NCBI RefSeq assembly: GCF_009914755.1
Contig: NC_060936.1
Direction: 5' to 3' (one strand)
Source: the human T2T-CHM13v2.0 reference genome, Homo sapiens
Length of the DNA stretch: 64,000 nt
Position numbers and translations under genes: made by a program. The notes beneath the pieces were generated by a model. The model searched no databases. It was not told the origin of the DNA and saw nothing but the letters and a program-made list of their open reading frames with translations. Shown in pieces: positions 9,111-22,809 of the stretch (positions within the stretch are counted from its first letter, which is position 1; every line of letters begins with the position of its first letter).

Positions 9111-9987
<877 letters not shown>

Positions 9988-10026
9988 TGAAGTGCTGAAA
10001 CATGCTTGTTAAAAGAAGCTGCTTCT

Positions 10027-10337
10027 TAGATGAGTGCAGCGGCTCACACCTGTAATCTCAGCATTTTGGGAGGCCGAGGCGAGAGAATCACTTGAAGCTA
10101 GTTCAAGACCAGCCTGGTCAGCATAGCAAGACCCTGTCTTTACAAAAAAACACACAAACAAACAAAAAATTAGCTGAGTGTCATGGTGCATGCATGTAGT
10201 CCTAGCTACTTGGGAGGCTGAGGCAGGAGGATCCCTTGAGCCTCAGAGGTCGAGGCTGCAGTGGGCCATGATCATACCACTGCCCTTCAGCTTAGGGGTG
10301 ACAGAGTGAGACCCTGTCTCAAAAAAAAAAAAAAAAA
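10027..10337 (+). mobile_element. AluJ
   Basis: gaggtcgaggctgcagtg and gagaccctgtctc followed by an A-tail. Confidence 0.85.
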
Positions 10338-10788
10338 GCTACTTCCAAAAAATTAGATATAACTCCTTTTTCTGCTGTTACTGCTCACTCCAGAACACCG
10401 TACAGATCACAGACACATCTCCCCATGCTGTGCCGGCTACTTTCCTACTCAAAACCTTCATGAGAGGCTTGCCACTACTTACAGAACTCAGTCTGAAGCT
10501 TAGTGTGCAGTGAAATGTTTTTCACAAAGAAAGAACTGCTATTCCTCTCTATATATAGTTATATATATTTGCTCACAGCCTTTCCTTCCTTGTAGAGCCC
10601 CCCTTACTCCCATGCTGCATCAATCTGTCCCTTCCTAGTGTGGTCCCAGGGGTCCTTGCTAACATCTTTCTTATCAGAGCCCCTGGTTATCTCACTTACT
10701 GTTGAAATCCTGACACATTTCTTGTCTATACCATTCATTTGTTGCTGCATATCTCATCATCCCTTTTCACTTATAGAAACGAAATCCT

Positions 10789-11085
10789 CGGCCAGGCACG
10801 GTGGCTCACGCCTGTAATCCCAGCATTTTGGGAGGCGAGGTGAGTGGATTACCTGAGGTCAGGAGTTCGAGACTATCCTGGCCAACATGGCAAAACCCGT
10901 CTCTACTAAAAATACAAAAATTGGCTGAGTGTGGTGGTGCACTCCTGTAATCCCAACTACTCAAGAGGCTGAGGCAGGAGAATCACTTGAACCTGGGAGG
11001 CGGAAGTTGCGGTGAGTGGAGATCTCACCAATGAACTCCAGCCTGGGCAACAAGAATGAACTCCGCTTCAAAAAAAAAAAAAAAA
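10789..11085 (+). mobile_element. AluS
   Basis: ggccaggcacggtggctcacgcc...A-tail. Confidence 0.9.
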
Positions 11086-13195: not shown

Positions 13196-14903
13196 TAGAT
13201 AGAAAAGGGAGAAAGACTGACCAATAAATATATATATTTACAGATTTTTTCATGAAACTGACTTTCATTTGTAGACATGTCAGATTATACAAAAGATCTC
13301 TTTTTATACATTTTTTAAAGGGTGGAAGCTTCAGTTCAATAGCGTTCGTGAGAAAATCCTTTAAGCTGTGTCAAAATGCCAGTTATCCTAAATGCCACCC
13401 AGATTTGAATAATTTAAAGAGAGACAAAACACACACAGAAAGAGGGAATCATCTTTTGACGACCATTGCTTTTGACGAGTCGGCCTCCCCCGCTCCCTCC
13501 CTCTTTTCTGAAGTATCTTCCTCTCTCTATCAGTGGTGACAACTGCCAGTCAAGCCTTCTGTGGCTGAGGGAGGAGGAGGAATGGGCAGGGGAGAAGCCA
13601 AGGGCAGGAGAGAGGGGAAGAACATGAAACATTCTTGAACAATTGCTCAAGGAAGATTCCCTGTCAGTGTGTGGTCTGGGGAAAAGAAGTCTTTTCCTTC
13701 TTTCATTTCTAATCTCTAACTGACTATTTATCTCTTTTTATAAACTTGAATCTCTCTGTTGCTCCAAAGGTTCCCAAACAAATCGCCAGTCAGCCAGGAT
13801 TAACCTGCTTTGTTGCTGACGATTAGCAGGTTTGCTTGTAGTTTTAACATCTTCAGCAACAGCTGAATGTCAAACGATTCAGGAAATACTTGTCTTATTT
13901 TGTCCAAAGCCATATACATGTTTGAAATAAGCTGAGAGAAAGATACCACACAGAGAGGATTATAGAACATTTCAGAGAGATGGAGTTTGACATGAACAAC
14001 TGAGAACTCTATCAACACTTGTACTTCTGTTGTTTTTATGCCACCATTTTTTTTTAAGTGTTATATTTTGGTCAACTCCCTTTCCCAAAGAAAAATCTGT
14101 AAATGTCTATTTGAATGCCAAACTCTATGAGATGAGCACATTGTAATTTACAAATGCTCATAGCATTCATTTATTGAATATCTACTGGGTGCTGAGTACT
14201 GTGCCAGAATCAAGTCCAGTCTCAGTTTTCAAGAGCCTTCTATTGCATTCACTTATATGTCCATTTCAGCATTTAATCTTTTTTAAAAAGCAATTAAATT
14301 ACTTATGACTCTGTGTTACTTGCAAGACCCTGAAAGACAAAGACTATGTCTTCCTTCTCTACCATCCCTTACTGTGTTGTTTCTTATTAATCTTCTAAAT
14401 GTTAGTTACTCAAGAGCATCTCTTCCTTTTAAGCATCATGATACAGAGAAAGGCATTGGTTTGGAATCAGGGGCTCTGGCTCTAGCACTACCTCATTTTA
14501 TGGCCGTGGACAAACCCATCCTTCAGTAAGCCTTTGGCTTTCAGCATTTATAACGTGAGGAGAGTTCTTTTCCATTGTTCCTTGCAATGCCAAAGTCTGT
14601 GATTCCTTGACCTCAGGGCAAGGAAACTGAATAGCAAGGCTGAGGGACACCTGCCCAATTTTAACCACCTTGAAGACAGGATTTGTCTTCTTCATTGAAC
14701 TCCCTGTGTCAACAAACATAGTGTCCTGCAGTAAAGGTCTACACACTTGAAAGGAACTCAAACTAGGAGTTTGTGAAGCAGAAAAGGAAACAATTTGGTA
14801 GGCATCAACATGGTCCTGGGAGGTAAGCCATAGGAAGGGCAAGATGAGAGCAGGCCCAAGATGTCATATGCATATTTTTGAGTTAATCAGCAGCCACCAT
14901 GTT

Positions 14904-15357
14904 TTTCATGCGCGTCCCTGTGAAGAGACCACCAAACACGCTTTGTGTGAGCAACATGGCTGTTTATTTCACCTGGGTGCAGGCGGGCTGAGTACAAAAA
15001 GAGAGTCAGCGAAGGGAGATAAGGGTGGGGCCGTTTTATAGGATTTGGGTAGGTAAAGGAAAATTACAGTCAAAGGGGGTTTGTTCTCTGGCGGGCAGGA
15101 GTGGGGGGTTGCAAGGTGCTCAGTGGGGGTGCTTTTTGAGCCAGGATGACCCAGGAAAAGGACTTTCACAAGGTAATGTCATCACTTAAGGCAAGGACCG
15201 GCCATTTACACTTCTTTTGTAGTGGAATGTCATCAGTTAAGGTGGGGCAGGGCATATTCACTTCTTTTGTGATTCTTCAGTTACTTCAGGCCATCTGGGC
15301 ATACACGTGCAAGTCACAGGGGATGCGATAGCTTGGCTTGAGCTCAGAGGCCTGACA
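14904..15357 (-). mobile_element. HERV-H 3' LTR (LTR7)
   Basis: Minus strand TGTCAGGCCTCTGAG...GCGCATGAAA; AATAAA at 14963-14968; 454 bp. Confidence 0.95.
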
Positions 15358-15909
15358 ATGTTCATGGCGTGTGCAGATAGGAGTGGACAATCTCATCAGG
15401 GCCTTGCAGGTGAGACTATAGGAAGTGAGACTGGGGATGAAGGGAAGGCTTCTGTCCTGGTATATCTTGAAATACTTTCTATACAAATGTAAATTTACAT
15501 ATTTCCCTTGTACTGAGTATATTTTACTACATTTTTTCTATAAGAGCAATTTCTCCTATCTCTGTATGGATGGATCTACTCTGTCCCCACGCAGATGTCC
15601 CATATCAAGCCACTAATACAATAATGATCTCACCCTGTGTAGGGTATAAGAAGCATTCTAGATCAAGCCCAGGAGTTTGCCACTCTCACTTGGGAATCTT
15701 GCTCTGTTATTTCTCTCATCTTTTCCTCTACTTTCAGTCTCTTCCTCTTCACTGGCTTCTTCCATTCAGTCTACAAACATAATCTCATTCCATTCATTCA
15801 TTGATTTCTTTATTCATTCATTCACATTAATTGCACACCTATTATACATAGTGTATAAAAATAATTACTCTTCCTCAACAACATATGTTCTCCTCACTTC
15901 AAGCAGATA
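15358..15909. repeat. 552-bp direct copy of host flank 21346-21901, inside the provirus
   Basis: Manual alignment: 13 substitutions and 3 indels (1, 7 and 4 bp). Confidence 0.97.
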
Positions 15910-15926
15910 GACATTCCTGCCTTCTT
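15910..15926 (-). other. Polypurine tract plus first 4 nt of an LTR (TGTC)
   Basis: Minus strand AAGAAGGCAGGAA-TGTC, the normal HERV-H PPT/U3 junction, here followed by host DNA. Confidence 0.9.
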
Positions 15927-16249
15927 ATATTAATAAGAAAAATAAAACAAAATAGTGTTGAAGTGTTGGGGTGGCGAAAATTTTTGGGGGGTGGTATGGA
16001 GAGAGAATGGGCGATGTTTCTCAGGGCTGCTTCAAGTGGGATTAGGGGCGTCGTGGGAACCTAGAGTGGGAGAGATTAAGCTGAAGGGAGGTCTTGTGGT
16101 AAGGGGTGATATTGTGGGGATGTTAGAAGAAACATTTGTCGTATAGAATGATTGGTGATGGCCTGGATATGGTTTTGGATGAATTGAGAAACTAAATGGA
16201 ATAACAGAAGGAGAAAAACAGGTATAAAAGGTCCAAGAATTGGGACGAC

Positions 16250-18400
16250 TCAGGATATCTGATTAGAGAGTGCCTAAGGAGATTCAGCATAGTCCTGCCA
16301 GCAAAGATTATTTATTTACTTCAAGAGTTAAGAGTGGCAGTTTGGTGATAGCACCAGGAGATATCAGCTGTGGTGGCTTGGGAAAACAGTGTAAACCGGC
16401 AGTGTAAACAAAAGCAGGGCATTTATGAGTAGTTGAGAATGGTGAATAGGAGTATGACTAGACAGAAGATAGTAGGGATGACAAGTTTTTTGGGGCACAG
16501 TCTAAGTTGGTCTGGTGTCTGCAATGAGACTGGGGCCTAATAAAAAGGAGCATCTATACAGGAGCTTAAATGGGCTGTACCCTGTAGCATTCCGAGGACA
16601 GGCCTGAATTCTGAGAAGGGAAAGTGGTAAAAGTAGTGTCCAGTCCTTTTTGGTGGCTGAGCTTGGTGAGGTGTGTTTTTAAAAGACCTTTAGTCCATTC
16701 TATTTTTCTTGAAGACGGAGGACCGTAAGGGATATAAAGTTTTCACTGAATACTAAGAGCCTGAAAAACTGCTTGGCTGATTTGACTAATAAAGGCTCAT
16801 CTGTTATCAGACTGTATTGAGGTGGGAAGGCTAAACTGAGGAATTATGTCTGACAGAACGGAAGAAATGACTGCGGTGGCCTTCTCAGACCCTGTAGGAA
16901 AGGCCTCTACCTATCCAGTGAAAGTATCTACCTAGACTAAGAGGTATTTTAGTTATCTGACTCAGGTCACGTTGAGTAAAGCTAATTTGCCAGTCCTGGG
17001 TGGGGCAAATCCTCGAGCTTGATGTGTAGGGAAGGGAGGCGGCCTGAATAATCCCTGAGGAGTAGTAGAATAGCAGATGGAACACTGAGAAGTTATTTCC
17101 TTGAGGATAGATTTCCACGATGGAAAGGAAATGAGAGGTTCTAAGAGGCGGGCTAGTGGCTTGTACTATAGCATAACCTGCCTTTGCTGGTGTGTGGCGA
17201 TTAGGCCTGGTGGAACCGCCATCAATAAATTAAGCGTGATCAGGGTGAGGAACAGGAAAGAAGGAAATTTGGGGAAATGGGGTGAATGTCAGGTGGATCA
17301 GAGAGATACAGTCATGGGGGTCAGGTGTGGTATCAGGAATAATGTGGGAGGCCAGATTGAAGTCTGGGCCAGGAACAATGGTAATTGTGGGACTTAAAGA
17401 GTGAGTACAGCTGAAGGAGCCGGGGAGCAGAAAGTATATGCGTCAGGTGTGAGGAAGAAAATAGATTTTGGAAGTTATGAGAACTGTAGAGAGTGAGTTG
17501 AGCATAGTTTGTGATTTTGAGGGCCCCTAAAAGTATTAAAGCAGTGGCAGCCACTGCACACAGACATGAGGGCTAGGCTAAAACAGTAAGGTCAAGTTGT
17601 TTGCACAGAAAGGCTACAGGGTGCAGTCCTGGCTCTTGTGTAAGAATTCTGACCACACTATGCCTAGGAAGGAAATGAGTTGTTGTTTTGTAAGGGATTG
17701 AGGTTTGGGAGATTAATCGGACACGATCAGCAGGGAAAGCACGTACGTTTTTATGAGAATTATGCCGAGATAGGTAACAGATGAGGATGAAATTTGGGCT
17801 TGACTGAAGTAATGGGGGCTGTCTATGAAGCCTTGCGGCAGTACAGCCTAGGTAATTTGCTGAGCCTAATGGGTGTCAGGGTCAGTCTAAGTGAAAGCAA
17901 AGAGAGGCTGGGACAAGGGGTGCAGGGGAATAGTGAAAAAAGCATCTTTAAGATCAAGCATGGAATAGTGAGTTGTGGAGGAAGTTATTGAGGACAAAAG
18001 AGTGTACTGGGTTGGGCACCACAGGGTGGATAGGCAAAACAATTTGGTTGATAAGGCGAAGATCCTGAACTAACTTGTAAGGCTTGTCTGGTTTTAGGAC
18101 AGGTAAAAATGGGGGAATTGTAAGGAGAGTTTATAGGCTTTAAAAGGCCATGCTATAGCAGGTGAGTGATAACAGGCTTTAATCTTTTTAAAGCGTGTTG
18201 CGGGACGGGATATTGGCGTTGAGTAGGGTAAGGGTGATTAGGTTTTAATAAGATGGTAAGGGATGCATGATCGGTCACCAAGGAGGGAGTAGAGGTATCT
18301 TATATTTGTGGGTTAAGGTGGGGGGATACAAGAGGAGGACGCAAAGGAGGCTTTGGATTGGGAAGAAGGGCGGCAATGAGATATAGCTGTAGTCCAGGAA
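16250..18400 (-). pseudogene. pol: HERV-H pol remnant (partial RT and integrase; deleted, frameshifted)
   Basis: Minus-strand translations [11 protein letters not shown] (~18050-18080), [12 protein letters not shown] (~17925-17960) and WQISFT (~16975-16995); boundaries approximate. Confidence 0.85.
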
Positions 18401-18434
18401 TAGTCAGGGAAGCAGATAATTTAGTTAAAGTGTC

Positions 18435-18659
18435 TCAGCCTAATAAGGGAACTGGGCAGGTGGGGATAACTAAAAAGGAGTGCTTAAAAGAGTATTGTCT
18501 AAGTTGGCACCAGAGTTGGGGAGTTTTAAGAGGTTTAGAAGCCTGACCATCAATACCCACAACAGTTATGGAGGCAAGGGAAACAGGCCCTTGAAAAGAA
18601 GGTAATGTGGAGTGGGTAGCCTCCATATTGATTAAGAAGGGGATGGGCTTACCTTCCAC
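18435..18659 (-). pseudogene. pro: HERV-H protease remnant, catalytic motif lost
   Basis: FLINMEATHS in place of LIDTGA; ...CPVPLLG. Confidence 0.85.
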
Positions 18660-18839
18660 TGTGAGAGTTACCCGAAGCTCGGCGTCCGTGTTGGTCTAAG
18701 GGGCTTCCTAGGCGATCGGGCAGTGTCTGTCTTCAGCCGCTAAGCCGAGAAGATCTGGGAAGGAGTCAGTCAGAGAGCCTTGGGACAGAGTTCCAGGGGA
18801 TCTGGGAGTGGCTGCCAGGTGAGTTGAACAGTCCAATTT

Positions 18840-19900
18840 TCAGTGGGGTCCCACACAGATGGGACGTGGCTTAGGAGGAATCCCAGGCTGCGGGCATTCC
18901 TTGGCCCAGTGGCCAGATTTCCAGCACTTGTAGCAAGCTCCTGGGGGAGGAGGTTCTGGAGGAATGCCTGGCTGCTGCGGTTCAGGCGTTTGGAAGTTCT
19001 TGTGTGCTGGAGATGTGGCTGGGGTTTGTCTCACAGAGGAGGCAAGGAATTGCAACTTTTTTCTGTTATTGTACACCTTGAAGGTGAGGTTAATTAAGTC
19101 CTGTTGTGGGGTTTGAGGGCCAGATTCCAATTTTTGGAGTTTTATTTAATGTCGGGAGCAGATTGGGTAATAAAATGTATATTGAGAATAAGACAGCCTT
19201 TTGACCTTTTAGGGTCTAGGGCTGTAAAGCATCTCAGGTTGCTGCCAAACGAGCCATGAACTGGGCTGGATTTTTATATTTGATGAAAAAGAGCCTAAAT
19301 GCTTCTGATTTGGGATAAAGAAAAAGGAGCATTAACCTTGACTATGCCGTTAGCTCCAGCCACCTTTTTAAGAGTAAATTGCTGGGCAGGTTGGGGAGGG
19401 CTAGTCACGGAAAGAAACTGTAAGCCCGACCAGGTGTGAGGAGGGGAAGTGATAAAAAGATTATAGGGCGGAGGAGAAGAGGCTGAGGAAGAATTGGGAC
19501 CTAGCTCAGCCTGGTGAGGAACAGCCTGGGGAGGAAAGGAGAGGTCAGATGGGTCTGTAGAAAAGGAAGATTAGAAAGACTCAACGACGCTTGTGGTTGG
19601 TACTGAGGGGACAGGCGGGAGGGAAAGAAGGAAGGTTTGGGACGAGTTGCACTGGGCACAGAGACTAGGAAGGGACTGATGTGTAAAAGAATGCCTGGAC
19701 GTCAGGCACCTCAGACCATTTGCCTATTTTACAACAAGAATTATTTAGATTTTGCAGGATGGAAAAATTCAAAGTGCCATTTTCTGGCTATTTGGAACTA
19801 CTGTCGAGTTTGTATTGGGGTCAAGCGGCATTGCAGAAGAAAATAAGGCATTTAGGTTTTAAGTCAGGTGGTGAGTTGAAGAGGTTTTAAGTTTTTGAGA
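18840..19900 (-). pseudogene. gag: HERV-H gag remnant
   Basis: ORF 18840-19130 has the NC zinc knuckle [14 protein letters not shown]; upstream boundary approximate. Confidence 0.8.
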
Positions 19901-20040
19901 ACACAGGCCAAGGGAGTAGAAGGAGGAATGGAGGTTGGAAGGCTGCCCATAGTGAAGGAAGCAAGCCTAGAGAAGAGAGTAGAGAAATGGAGGGAAGGGG
20001 TTCAGGGGTTCTTACCTTCCAGAAAAGTGGGAACAGGGGT

Positions 20041-20293
20041 TGGGGCTCAGAGATAAGAGGTCGGGGCGTGGAAATAAGGGACTAGGGTGCAGAGATATAA
20101 GAGGTTGGGGCACGGAAATAAGGGATTGGGGTGCAGAGATAAGAGGTCGGGGTGAGGAAATAAGGGATTGGGGTGCAGAGATAAGAGGTCGGGGTGTGGA
20201 AATAAGGGATTGGGGCAGAGATAAGAGGTTGGGGTGCGGAAATAAGGGATTGGGGTACAGAGATAAGAGGCTGGGGTGTGGAAATAAGGGATT
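20041..20293. repeat. Six-copy ~42-bp minisatellite in the HERV-H leader
   Basis: Unit GGGGTGCAGAGATAAGAGGTCGGGGTGTGGAAATAAGGGATT. Confidence 0.9.
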
Positions 20294-20873
20294 GGGGGTT
20301 CTTGCCCCATAGAAAAGTGGGACTTGCCGCTAAGGGTGAAGGAGAAGCGGTTGAGGGGTACTTGCCCCTCTCCCAGAAAAGCAGAGAAGGGTTAGAGACA
20401 AGGAGAGAAGGGGTTGGGGTACTTGCCCCTTCCCCAGAAAAGCGGGACTTGCCGCTAAGGGTGAAGGACCAAGGCAGGCATCCCTGTGTGGTCTGACACC
20501 CTTGAAACGTGGGTGTATAATCAGAGAGGCGTCCCTGCAATGATTAAACACCAAGGGAAGCCTGCCTTCCCAGTCCATGACCGGCGCCGGAGTTTTGGGT
20601 CCACGGATAAAATGTGTCTCCTTTGTCTCTCCCAGAAAATGAAAGGAATTGAAATTAAGAGAAGGGAGAGATTGAAGAGTGGAAAGGAGAAAGTGGTTGA
20701 GGGACAGTGAGAGAGGTTGGAGAAGAGAGTAAGAAGAGGCCACTTGCCTGATTTAAAATTGGTGAGATGTTCCTTGGGCTGGTCGGTCTGAGGACTTGAG
20801 GTCATAGGTGGATCTTTCTAATGGAGCGAAGAACACGAGTACAGGGGATTGATCTCCCAAGGGAGGTCCCCTG

Positions 20874-20891
20874 ATCAGAGTCACGGCACCA
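20874..20891 (-). other. Primer binding site, tRNA-His
   Basis: TGGTGCCGTGACTCTGAT, one mismatch to TGGTGCCGTGACTCGGAT, 2 nt after the 5' LTR. Confidence 0.92.
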
Positions 20892-20893
20892 AA

Positions 20894-21345
20894 TTTCATG
20901 TGCGTCCGTGTGAAGAGACCACCAAACAGGCTTTGTGTGAGCAACATGGCTGTTTATTTCACCTGGGTGCAGGCGGGCTGAGTCCAAAAGAGAGTCAGCA
21001 AAGGGAGATAAGGGTGGGGCCATTTTATAGGATTTGGGTAGGTAAAGGAAAATTACAGTCAAAGGGGGTTTGTTCTCTGGCGGGCAGGAGTGGGGGTCGC
21101 AAGGTGCTCAGTGGGGGTGCTTTTTGAGCCAGGATGACCCAGGAAAAGGACTTTCACAAGGTAATGTCATCACTTAAGGCAAGGACCGGCCATTTACACT
21201 TCTTTTGTAGTGGAATGTCATCAGTTAAGGTGGGGCAGGGCATATTCACTTCTTTTGTGATTCTTCAGTTACTTCAGGCCATCTGGGCATATACGTGCAA
21301 GTCACAGGGGATGTGATGGCTTGGCTTGGGCTCAGAGGCCTGACA
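20894..21345 (-). promoter_or_regulatory. HERV-H 5' LTR (LTR7), promoter facing lower coordinates
   Basis: TATAAAA 21023-21029; AATAAA 20953-20958; two ACAAAAGA motifs (21201-21208, 21251-21258); adjacent to the PBS. Confidence 0.93.
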
Positions 21346-22809
21346 ATGTTCATGGCATGTGCAGATAGGAGTGGACAATCTCATCAGGGCCTTGCAGGTG
21401 AGACTATAGGAAGTGAGACTGGGGATGAAGGGAAGGCTTCTGTCCTGGTATATCTTGAAATACTTTCTATACAAATGTAAATTTACATATTTCCCTTGTA
21501 CTGAGTATATTTTACTACATTTTTTTCTATAAGAGCAATTTCTCCTGTCTCTGTATGGATGGATCTACTCTGTCCCCATGCAGATGTCCCACATCAAGCC
21601 ACTAATATAATAATGATCTCACCCTGTGTAGGGTATAAGAAGCATTCTAGATCAAGCCCAGGAGTTTGCCACTCTCACTTCTCACTTGGGAATCTTGCTC
21701 TGTTATTTCTCTCATCTTTTCCTCTACCTTCAGTCTCTTCCTCTTCACTGGTTTCTTCCAGTCTACAAACATAACCTCATTCCATTCATTCATTGATTTC
21801 TTTATTCAGTCATTCACATTAATTGCACACCTATTATACACAGTGTATAAAAATTATTACTCATCCTCAACAACATATGTTCTCATCACTTCAAGCAGAT
21901 ACCCTCTTCTTCTTTCTCACTGGGATCAAAGTGAATTAATGAGAATATCTTCAGTATCCCTTTCTTCATTGTAATTCTCCACATCTGCCTTCCTTCCTGC
22001 CTCTTCACTTTTGTCTTAAAGGAGGATATTTCCGGTCTTCATTTATCAGTTAGGATGGTTTCTGCATGCCTCTTAATAAGGAAATGTATTATTTCACATA
22101 GCAGGAAGTCCCGTGATAGTACAGGCTCCAGGCAGAGTATGACCAATGCTCTGGTTGCTTTGCTTTGAGATTCTCTCAGCGATTCAAAAACACAAAAGCA
22201 AGGCAGTGGTTGTGTTTGGGAAGGTGAGGGAAGAGAGAGAATGGAACAGTAAGCAGGGATCGTCAATTATATTTATAATTATTTATTTAAGCTGGTTTGT
22301 GTGTACTTGGGTATACATTAGTCTAGTCTTACCATTTTGTGTGAAAAGAAACATAAGATTTAAATATATTAATACAATGATTATTTGTAACCACATCCAA
22401 CTGAAGAGTGCTTCTGAAGTCCCTTGTGTTTCCTTCCACATTTTTATTTTCCATCCAGACTCCCAGAGGGAATGACTATATGGAAGTGTGTGAATCTTTG
22501 AATTTTATGTAAATTGAATAATTCTATATCTCATTTTTTACTTTTATTCTTCTATGACTTGACTTGTTTCTCTAACATAGTATTCTAGGATTCATATATG
22601 CTAATGCATATAGCTACAGTTCATTTGTTTTCAGCAATAAATAGTATTTTATTACACAAGTTAGCTACAACCGAATCCTGTGGGAAATGTCAAGAAGCCA
22701 CCACATCCGAGGAGTGAGAGTTTTGAGGCATACCCATGAAGTTTGCCAGAGTTCATGAAAAAGTTTGTAAACCTGACAATTTGATAAAGTTTGAGTTTAT
22801 TGAACATAT

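What the first reader, a model, noticed from the sequence alone, without database searches (positions are those of the whole stretch)
15358..15926. Potential host-extended U3: a route for LTRs to capture cellular DNA
Seen: the PPT is intact and still followed by TGTC, then 552 bp of host DNA, then a full LTR. Established: U3 is whatever lies between PPT and R, and it is copied into both progeny LTRs. Inference: if this RNA were packaged in trans, progeny would have ~1-kb LTRs starting with TG and carrying host sequence. Only 4 bp of the att end remain, so integration might be inefficient.
Basis: inference. Interest (0 to 1): 0.7.

Follow-up and report, generated by a model that had tools for sequence, protein, structure and literature searches.

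The report
HERV-H provirus with duplicated host flank
An old human endogenous retrovirus copy had its upstream neighbouring DNA, together with its left terminal repeat, copied onto its right end; this is a tidy but ordinary genome rearrangement, and nothing shows that the virus ever spread the extra DNA.

Summary
A minus-strand HERV-H (LTR7up1) provirus has an intact polypurine tract, then TGTC, then 552 bp of unique host DNA (15909..15358), then a full LTR7 (15357..14904). The host piece copies the provirus's own 5' flank (21901..21346). A 5-bp target-site duplication, AACAT, brackets the two canonical LTR7s, so the flank is native upstream DNA and was duplicated after integration. The flank pair and the LTR pair are equally diverged (2.4% each), so the event is old and close in time to integration. 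The new junction TGTC|TATC is blunt. The copied block begins right after a 17-nt host polypurine run. GRCh38 coordinates in Carter et al. 2022 show the same architecture, catalogued there as a "solo" 7up1 LTR plus a "truncated" provirus. An AATAAA lies 100 nt into the insert. Best reading: an in-situ, DNA-level duplication guided by LTR homology. The "route for LTR capture" is sound in principle but unsupported here. Low to moderate interest.

The parts
21902..21918 (-). Host 17-nt polypurine run (GAGAAAGAAGAAGAGGG) immediately upstream of the duplicated block. It marks the left breakpoint of the copied unit.
   Evidence: Only 15 runs of 17 or more purines occur on this strand in the 64-kb window.
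21346..21901 (-). H': the native upstream host flank of the provirus (556 bp). Its last 5 bp, AACAT (21350..21346), are the upstream copy of the target-site duplication.
20894..21345 (-). 5' LTR7 (7up1), TGTCAGG...CATGAAA, with AATAAA at 20958..20953.
   Evidence: The subfamily comes from the Carter et al. supplement.
15914..20893 (-). HERV-H internal region. A PBS-like TGGTGCCGTGAC starts at 20891. Gag zinc-knuckle (18843-19145) and protease (18438-18695) remnants are present. The PPT ends at 15914.
15910..15913 (-). TGTC: the first 4 bp of the original 3' LTR, left next to the PPT. The novel blunt junction TGTC|TATC lies at 15910/15909.
15358..15909 (-). H: the duplicated copy of the 5' flank (552 bp, ending AACAT at 15362..15358). 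It carries AATAAA at 15814..15809.
14904..15357 (-). 3' LTR7 (7up1), full length, with AATAAA at 14968..14963. It is catalogued in GRCh38 as a solo LTR.
14899..14903 (-). Downstream copy of the 5-bp target-site duplication AACAT.

Best explanation
An LTR7up1 HERV-H provirus integrated normally into host sequence H-AACAT-Y, in sense orientation within a C12orf42 intron. This gave X-H-AACAT-[LTR-int-PPT-LTR]-AACAT-Y. Soon afterwards on an evolutionary scale, a DNA-level event in the germ line copied the block 'H + AACAT + 5' LTR' onto the position of the 3' LTR. The right side of the event was resolved through LTR-LTR homology. The left side was sealed by one blunt, non-homologous junction 4 bp into the old 3' LTR (TGTC|TATC). 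My preferred sub-mechanism, at about half of this probability, is a single templated event. A DNA end or nascent strand within the 3' LTR paired with the 5' LTR of the sister chromatid or homologue. It was then extended leftwards through the LTR into the upstream flank, stalled or dissociated at a 17-nt polypurine tract, and was joined back at the border where LTR homology ends. The result is a provirus whose 3' LTR is separated from its PPT by 556 bp. It is a passive structural variant, not a product or a demonstrated source of retrotransposition. What is shown: the anatomy, the TSD, uniqueness in the genome, equal divergence of the two pairs, the blunt junction, and the polypurine boundary. 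What is inferred: the order of events and the templated mechanism.
For: TSD: AACAT lies directly before both TGTCAGG LTR starts and directly after the 3' LTR end CATGAAA; the chance of a 5-bp match is 1/1024. So H is the native upstream flank and the pre-integration site was H-AACAT-Y. The repeat unit starts at TATCTGC in both copies. Host ...AGAGGG precedes it at the 5' copy and PPT-TGTC precedes it at the 3' copy. It ends at the LTR end in both copies, so there is one novel junction plus LTR homology. Divergence is 13 substitutions in 548 bp of H (2.4%) and 11 in 452 bp of LTR7 (2.4%), Fisher p = 1.0. Non-CpG divergence is 2.0% against 1.3%, and the two LTR halves do not differ significantly (p = 0.46). 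The duplication is therefore as old as the LTR pair, about 5.5-24 Myr depending on the rate used. This fits the 7up1 wave dated in Carter et al.. H has no other copy in the genome and the junction is unique. The junction has no microhomology. The left breakpoint sits exactly at the 3' edge of a 17-nt polypurine run. There are 15 such runs on this strand in 64,000 positions, so about 2.3e-4 per position, judged post hoc. The same architecture is present in GRCh38.
Against: No outgroup genome was available, so the empty site X-H-AACAT-Y and the age are inferred, not seen. Equal divergence cannot order integration and duplication, and the counts are small (11 and 13 substitutions). One breakpoint lies 4 bp after the viral PPT and the other directly after a PPT-like host tract. 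That pattern could instead point to reverse transcriptase involvement. No sequence feature separates a one-step templated event from a two-step tandem duplication followed by LTR-LTR deletion. The polypurine coincidence was noticed after the fact.
Confidence: 0.8

Rival explanations
1. A two-step DNA-level origin. An unequal, non-homologous exchange joined position 4 of the 3' LTR on one chromatid to the X/H boundary on the other. This made a 5,992-bp tandem duplication X-[H-LTR-int-TGTC]-[H-LTR-int-LTR]-Y. LTR-LTR homologous recombination then deleted the second internal region. This is a variant inside the class of the best explanation.
For: It gives exactly the observed order, with one blunt junction and one LTR-sized homologous joint. 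Tandem proviruses and solo-LTR formation are established for HERVs (my own knowledge; the titles and abstracts listed cover HML-2 structural forms and HERV-mediated recombination).
Against: It needs two breaks plus a later recombination. It does not explain why one break sits at a polypurine tract edge and the other 4 bp from the PPT. No intermediate with two internal regions exists in T2T-CHM13: only two H copies were found.
Confidence: 0.3
2. A reverse-transcriptase-mediated origin. A read-in transcript entered the provirus from upstream; C12orf42 runs on the same strand. That RNA carried X-polypurine-H-LTR. During reverse transcription alongside a normal genomic RNA, minus-strand synthesis switched by U3 homology onto the read-in RNA and ran into H. 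It then paused at, or was bounded by, the cryptic host PPT, and returned non-homologously at the U3 border. This made PPT-TGTC-H-LTR. The cDNA then converted the parental locus by recombination.
For: Both breakpoints lie at plus-strand-priming-like sites: 4 bp after the true PPT and directly after a 17-nt PPT-like run ending GGG. The event is as old as the integration, when 7up1 was active. The provirus is in sense orientation within a C12orf42 intron (hub annotation given with the finding).
Against: The product sits at the parental locus with the native X-H contiguity and the original TSD. A rare cDNA-to-genome conversion must therefore be added. No progeny with two extended LTRs exists anywhere in the genome. 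Polypurine tracts also stall DNA polymerases and break as H-DNA (my own knowledge), so a DNA-level event explains the same boundary without extra steps.
Confidence: 0.07
3. One reading: this locus has served, or still can serve, as a source of progeny with about 1-kb LTRs carrying host DNA (host capture into U3).
For: PPT, TGTC, a full U3-R-U5 and the LTR's own AATAAA are all present downstream of the insert. The LTRs are 7up1. The 3' LTR overlaps NANOG, KLF4 and SOX2 peaks and H3K27ac in H1 cells according to Carter et al. supplementary file 1.
Against: There are zero extra copies of H and zero extra junctions in T2T-CHM13. An AATAAA lies 100 nt into the insert. Only 4 bp of the U3 att end remain. 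Among ORFs of 70 aa or more, only zinc-knuckle and protease remnants were recognised. The supplement row for the 3' LTR has RNA = 0 and GRO-seq = 0, though that row covers the LTR only. The Carter et al. introduction states that no polymorphic HERVH insertions are known.
Confidence: 0.03
4. The 1-kb repeats are true extended LTRs of a retrotransposed element, or H belongs to an uncharacterised long LTR7 variant, or the duplication is an assembly artefact.
For: Two direct repeats of about 1,006-1,008 bp flank an internal region.
Against: The 5' repeat does not begin with TGTC, and the sequences outside the 1-kb repeats (GAGGG and AACAT) do not match. The AACAT TSD brackets the 452/454-bp LTR7s. 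H occurs nowhere else among the genome's LTR7 copies. The copies differ by 2.4% and GRCh38 shows the same spacing.
Confidence: 0.01

Closest known systems
Canonical LTR7up1-HERVH proviruses (Carter et al. 2022, eLife, PMC8912925)
   Same: LTR7 of the 7up1 subfamily at both ends, a His-type PBS-like site, gag and protease remnants, a PPT identical to hundreds of copies, and a 5-bp TSD. The 3' LTR is bound by NANOG, KLF4 and SOX2 in H1 cells according to their table.
   Different: 556 bp (TGTC plus a copy of its own 5' flank) separate the PPT from the 3' LTR. Their pipeline therefore lists it as a 'solo' LTR plus a 'truncated 1-LTR' provirus. In my survey of PPT junctions no other HERV-H copy had TGTC followed by non-LTR DNA.
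Tandem or rearranged HERV proviruses and HERV-mediated ectopic recombination, for example the HML-2 tandem provirus sharing a central LTR (recalled; related papers seen only as listings)
   Same: LTR homology is used to resolve a duplication. The result is repeated LTRs in direct orientation.
   Different: Here the repeated unit includes unique host flank and has one non-homologous blunt junction inside the 3' LTR. There is no second internal region.
Double-copy retroviral vectors and U3 inserts in natural retroviral LTRs (recalled; the search found no open paper holding all four terms)
   Same: Sequence placed between PPT and R would be copied into both LTRs of progeny.
   Different: That is a designed or replication-proven configuration. 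Here the insert arose by genomic rearrangement, keeps only 4 bp of att, contains a poly(A) signal, and has no progeny.
Retroviral and retrotransposon transduction of flanking DNA (oncogene capture through read-through RNAs, L1 3' transduction; recalled)
   Same: Flanking host DNA becomes physically joined to element termini.
   Different: Transduced copies lie at new loci with new TSDs. Here the extra copy is in situ and unique.
HIV-1 proviruses with asymmetric LTRs (Joseph et al. 2022, PMC9278108; abstract and passages read)
   Same: The 5' and 3' LTR regions of one provirus differ structurally, with breakpoints around the PPT/U3 region.
   Different: Those are deletions made during reverse transcription before integration. 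This is an insertion of the target site's own flank, and so post-integration.

Membership tests
HERV-H / LTR7 provirus | Two LTR7s in direct orientation beginning TGTCAGG and ending CATGAAA | tested here: met
   LTRs at 21345..20894 and 15357..14904, 97.6% identical.
HERV-H / LTR7 provirus | PBS next to the 5' LTR and PPT at the 3' end of the internal region | tested here: met
   TGGTGCCGTGAC follows the 5' LTR; that it is of the His type is recalled. The PPT 14-mer is shared with 358 genomic TGTCA junctions.
HERV-H / LTR7 provirus | Retroviral gag/pro/pol remnants on the same strand | tested here: met
   Pfam zf-CCHC (E 3.9e-6) and RVP (E 1.8e-5) hit 2 of the 14 minus-strand ORFs scanned. No RT, IN or env hit among ORFs of 70 aa or more.
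HERV-H / LTR7 provirus | Short target-site duplication flanking the LTRs | tested here: met
   AACAT on both sides.
LTR7up1 subfamily | Assignment by phylogeny or RepeatMasker with subfamily consensus sequences | not tested
   Taken from Carter et al. supplementary files 1 and 2, where both pieces are labelled 7up1. The header sequence shown there matches our 3' LTR start. I built no consensus.
   The 5' copy is preceded by host ...AGAGGG with no TGTC.
   GAGGG upstream against AACAT downstream. The TSD brackets the canonical LTR7s instead.
   Only two full-length H matches, both at this locus. The junction is unique. Only T2T-CHM13 was searched.
In-situ segmental (tandem-type) duplication resolved through repeat homology | Direct repeats at one locus, a single novel junction, the other boundary inside a pre-existing repeat | tested here: met
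   Period 5,992 bp, junction TGTC|TATC, right boundary at the LTR end.
In-situ segmental (tandem-type) duplication resolved through repeat homology | An unduplicated ancestral state in an outgroup | not testable with these tools
   No primate genomes are held; the own genome 'has no relatives here'.

The most novel reading that the evidence does not exclude
Reverse transcriptase rather than a cellular polymerase made the duplication. A host read-in transcript crossing the upstream flank and 5' LTR was co-reverse-transcribed. Synthesis was bounded by a cryptic 17-nt host polypurine tract and rejoined at the PPT/U3 border. The cDNA then converted the parental locus. This would be a natural case of 5'-flank transduction into U3 by a human endogenous retrovirus, caught at its source.
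Probability: 0.07. Interest if true: 0.7.

Novelty: new member of a known kind. Interest (0 to 1): 0.27.

Why it matters
It shows how a structurally complete, young (7up1) HERV-H provirus can be misfiled as a "solo LTR plus truncated provirus" because 556 bp of its own flank sit between PPT and 3' LTR. That misfiling removes it from analyses of full-length elements. It is also a clean, datable example of an LTR-homology-guided duplication whose breakpoints fall at polypurine tracts. This bears on how ERVs seed local structural change.

Tried and rejected

2. Literature.
- 'HERVH' + 'C12orf42': 0 papers.
- 'double-copy' + 'retroviral vector' + 'LTR' + 'duplicated': 0 papers.
- Broader searches listed HML-2 catalogues, NAHR papers and plant gene-capture papers. 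None describes a 5' flank copied onto a 3' LTR. I read only passages of PMC9278108 and PMC3726574. The latter says nothing about capture within LTRs.
- Two searches failed on term format and were re-sent in corrected form.

3. Recurrence of the structure among HERV-H copies.
- Only copies that keep the exact PPT word can be seen, and the 334 TGTCAGG sites were not inspected further.
- Of 110 hits to the PPT followed by a non-T base, 30 were fetched. A longer 18-mer was used to cover the rest.
- Nothing like this locus was found. One different oddity, L108, is listed under Noticed in passing.

4. Gradient of divergence along the repeat. I looked for a chimeric 3' LTR by comparing the halves. 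The difference was not significant (p = 0.46), so it cannot separate one-step from two-step models.

5. Microhomology at the junction: none.

6. The diagnostic 8-bp SOX2/3 motif of 7up is not spelled out in the main text of Carter et al.. I relied on their supplement for the subfamily.

7. Polarising substitutions against other LTR7 copies would need a majority or consensus state of a human provirus part, so I did not do it.

Full report
ANATOMY

All sequence below is read on the minus strand, which is the provirus sense strand and also the strand of C12orf42 according to the hub annotation. The locus reads in this order:
- host X, ending in a 17-nt polypurine run GAGAAAGAAGAAGAGGG (21918..21902);
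- H' (21901..21346, 556 bp, ending AACAT);
- 5' LTR7 (21345..20894, TGTCAGG...CATGAAA);
- TT followed by a PBS-like TGGTGCCGTGAC from 20891;
- the HERV-H internal region down to the PPT ...AAGAAGGCAGGAA (ending at 15914);
- TGTC (15913..15910);
- H (15909..15358, 552 bp, ending AACAT);
- 3' LTR7 (15357..14904);
- AACAT (14903..14899);
- host Y.

The repeat finder had already shown that about 1 kb is repeated at a spacing of about 5,990 bp. Pfam recognises a gag zinc knuckle (18843-19145) and a retroviral protease (18438-18695). These are 2 of the 14 minus-strand ORFs of 70 aa or more that I scanned. No RT, IN or env was found among those ORFs.

WHAT THE HOST DNA IS

The 552 bp are a copy of the provirus's own upstream flank. 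AACAT lies directly in front of both LTR7 starts and directly behind the 3' LTR7 end. This is a 5-bp target-site duplication around the canonical LTR7 pair, with a chance match of 1/1024. The pre-integration site was therefore H-AACAT-Y. H' is native, and the H next to the PPT is the extra copy. Because that copy includes the host-LTR joint made by integration, the duplication is post-integration.

The repeat begins at TATCTGC in both copies. Host ...AGAGGG precedes it at the 5' copy and PPT-TGTC precedes it at the 3' copy. It ends at the LTR end in both. There is thus one novel junction (TGTC|TATC, blunt, no microhomology) plus one joint hidden in LTR homology.

IS IT MOBILE?

A whole-genome search of T2T-CHM13 with H gave 4 matches: the two local copies (100% and 96% over the full length) and two 40-50-bp weak hits on C21 and C23. 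The 25-nt junction occurs once with up to 3 mismatches allowed, and the reversed control gave 0. The 5' copy lacks TGTC. The sequences outside the 1-kb repeats (GAGGG and AACAT) do not match. The present 1-kb repeats are therefore not extended LTRs made by reverse transcription, and no progeny exist in this genome.

In provirus sense a canonical AATAAA sits 100 nt after the PPT inside H (15814..15809). It lies well before the LTR's own AATAAA (14968..14963). Whether it is used is untested.

AGE

- H against H': 13 substitutions and 3 indels in 548 aligned bp (2.4%).
- LTR7 against LTR7: 11 substitutions and 2 indels in 452 bp (2.4%). Fisher p = 1.0.
- Without CpG transitions: 2.0% against 1.3%.
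- The second LTR half (3.1%) does not differ significantly from the rest (2.2%; p = 0.46). The partition was one column off, which does not change the substitution counts.

With rates of 0.5-2.2e-9 per site per year, 2.4% corresponds to about 24-5.5 Myr. Passages of Carter et al. 2022 (PMC8912925) place the 7up1 wave at about 10-14 Mya by liftover and 4-10 Mya in their summary of waves. The duplication is thus about as old as the insertion. With 11 and 13 substitutions the resolution is coarse.

INDEPENDENT ASSEMBLY AND PUBLISHED ANNOTATION

I searched the supplements of Carter et al.. Two entries correspond to this locus.
- chr12:103222116-103222567 (hg38, minus strand) is listed as a SOLO 7up1 LTR. 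Its printed start (TGTCAGGCCTCTGAGCTCAAG...CCAAGCTATCGCATCC) carries the variants of our 3' LTR.
- chr12:103223124-103228554 is listed as 'LTR7up1 ... 1ltr_int ... truncated'.

The 557-bp gap between them equals TGTC plus H. GRCh38 therefore has the same architecture, and the structure has been read as two separate elements. In supplementary file 1 the 'solo' row scores as follows:
- 1 for NANOG, KLF4, SOX2, H3K4me1 and H3K27ac;
- 0 for RNA, GRO-seq, chimeric transcript, KAP1 and H3K4me3.

This fits the RefSeq enhancer features over both LTRs given by the hub. The row covers the LTR only. The 'truncated' provirus is not in that table: the search found only the two coordinates of the solo row in file 1.

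HOW UNUSUAL AMONG HERV-H COPIES

I surveyed sites that keep the exact PPT word. The survey cannot see copies with a mutated PPT.
- AAGGCAGGAATGTC followed by A: 358 sites, control 0. Of these, 334 continue AGG and were not inspected further. The 24 that deviate at the next two bases were all examined. Twelve are HERV-H and all run on into LTR7, one of them with a 3-bp insertion. Twelve are unrelated.
- The same word followed by a non-A base: 47 sites, control 9. All 46 others were fetched. Five are HERV-H with a point change and run on into LTR7. Forty-one are unrelated.
- PPT followed by something other than T, TG, TGT or TGTC (examined).
  - Non-T: 30 of 110 hits were fetched, giving 1 HERV-H and 29 unrelated. 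A longer 18-mer then gave 5 hits, of which 3 are HERV-H point variants.
  - T then not G: 18 hits, 7 of them HERV-H.
  - TG then not T: 6 hits, 2 of them HERV-H.
  - TGT then not C: 3 hits, 2 of them HERV-H.
  - All the HERV-H cases continue into LTR7 except L108.
- L108 is an internal tandem duplication of about 520 bp of the 3' internal region, with an Alu in the second PPT.

This locus is the only one found where 4 bp of LTR are followed by foreign DNA.

MECHANISM

What is shown: one blunt non-homologous junction, one homologous (LTR) joint, an in-situ copy, and equal divergence of the two pairs.

What is inferred: a DNA-level event. Two forms fit.
- Form (a) is a single templated event. 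A DNA end or nascent strand in the 3' LTR pairs with the 5' LTR of the sister or homologue. It is extended leftwards through the LTR into the flank, then released and joined at the border where homology ends.
- Form (b) is a non-homologous unequal exchange making a 5,992-bp tandem duplication, followed by LTR-LTR deletion of the second internal region.

I prefer form (a) because it needs one event and because of a detail noticed late. The copied block starts exactly at the 3' edge of a 17-nt polypurine run. Only 15 runs of 17 or more purines lie on this strand in 64,000 positions, about 2.3e-4 per position, and counting both edges and both strands still gives about 1e-3, judged post hoc. Such tracts are known polymerase-stalling, H-DNA-forming sites (my own knowledge). 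The other breakpoint, 4 bp into U3, is where LTR homology ends.

The same two facts, a breakpoint just after the true PPT and one just after a PPT-like tract, also suggest a bolder reading involving reverse transcriptase. Under it, a read-in RNA (C12orf42 is co-oriented) is reverse-transcribed, with a homologous switch in U3, pausing or plus-strand priming at the cryptic PPT, and a non-homologous return at the U3 border. That reading needs the cDNA to convert the parental locus, and it has left no progeny. I give it about 7%.

It is correct that sequence between PPT and R would be inherited by both LTRs of progeny. The evidence here is against this locus having used that route:
- no extra copies in the genome;
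- only 4 bp of the att end remain;
- a poly(A) signal lies inside the insert;
- the HERVH family has no known polymorphic insertions in humans (Carter et al. introduction).

Whether transcripts reach R remains open. No RNA data were available.

VERDICT

The feature is real and precisely described. Its origin is an old post-integration duplication of flank plus LTR, a new member of the known class of ERV-associated rearrangements. It is of low to moderate interest. Two by-products are worth noting: a mis-annotation in a widely used HERVH catalogue, and breakpoints at polypurine tracts.

Noticed in passing
window 14904-15357 and 15914-21345 (hg38 chr12:103222116-103222567 and 103223124-103228554): In the supplements of Carter et al. 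2022 this two-LTR 7up1 provirus is split into a 'SOLO' LTR and a 'truncated 1-LTR' provirus. The 5'-LTR-driven unit is therefore absent from their regulatory table (file 1).
   Followed up: partly
window 21902-21918 (minus strand): A 17-nt host polypurine run ending GGG lies exactly at the left edge of the duplicated block. It resembles a retroviral PPT and sits in the same orientation as the provirus.
   Followed up: partly
window 15809-15814 and 21801-21806 (minus strand): A canonical AATAAA is present in both copies of the flank, 100 nt downstream of the PPT in the 3' copy, followed by a TG-rich stretch. It is a possible premature poly(A) site for provirus transcripts.
   Followed up: no
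window 20002-20293: An array of about 21-bp tandem repeats (GGGGTGCAGAGATAAGAGGTC-like units, 10 overlapping 82-nt family members) lies in the 5' part of the HERV-H internal region, about 600-900 nt downstream of the PBS.
   Followed up: no
L108 (G000:C5:98941739-98944754): Another HERV-H copy has an internal tandem duplication of about 520 bp of the 3' internal region including the PPT. An Alu is inserted inside the second PPT and is flanked by a short repeat (GACAGG).
   Followed up: partly
L112, L113, L114 (G000:C8 at 7.14, 12.05 and 12.59 Mb): Three near-identical HERV-H 3' junctions share the same LTR-start variant (TATCAGG) and a GAG-to-TAG change. They look like copies carried by segmental duplications on chromosome 8p rather than separate integrations.
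   Followed up: no
L069 (G000:C3:189991884-189994900): A HERV-H 3' LTR start has a 3-bp insertion (TGTCAGTCAGG), the only small indel seen at the att end in the survey.
   Followed up: no
window 9158-11080: A cluster of Alu-like repeats lies in direct and inverted orientation (arms up to 189 nt, 72-93% complementary) a few kb downstream of the provirus.
   Followed up: no
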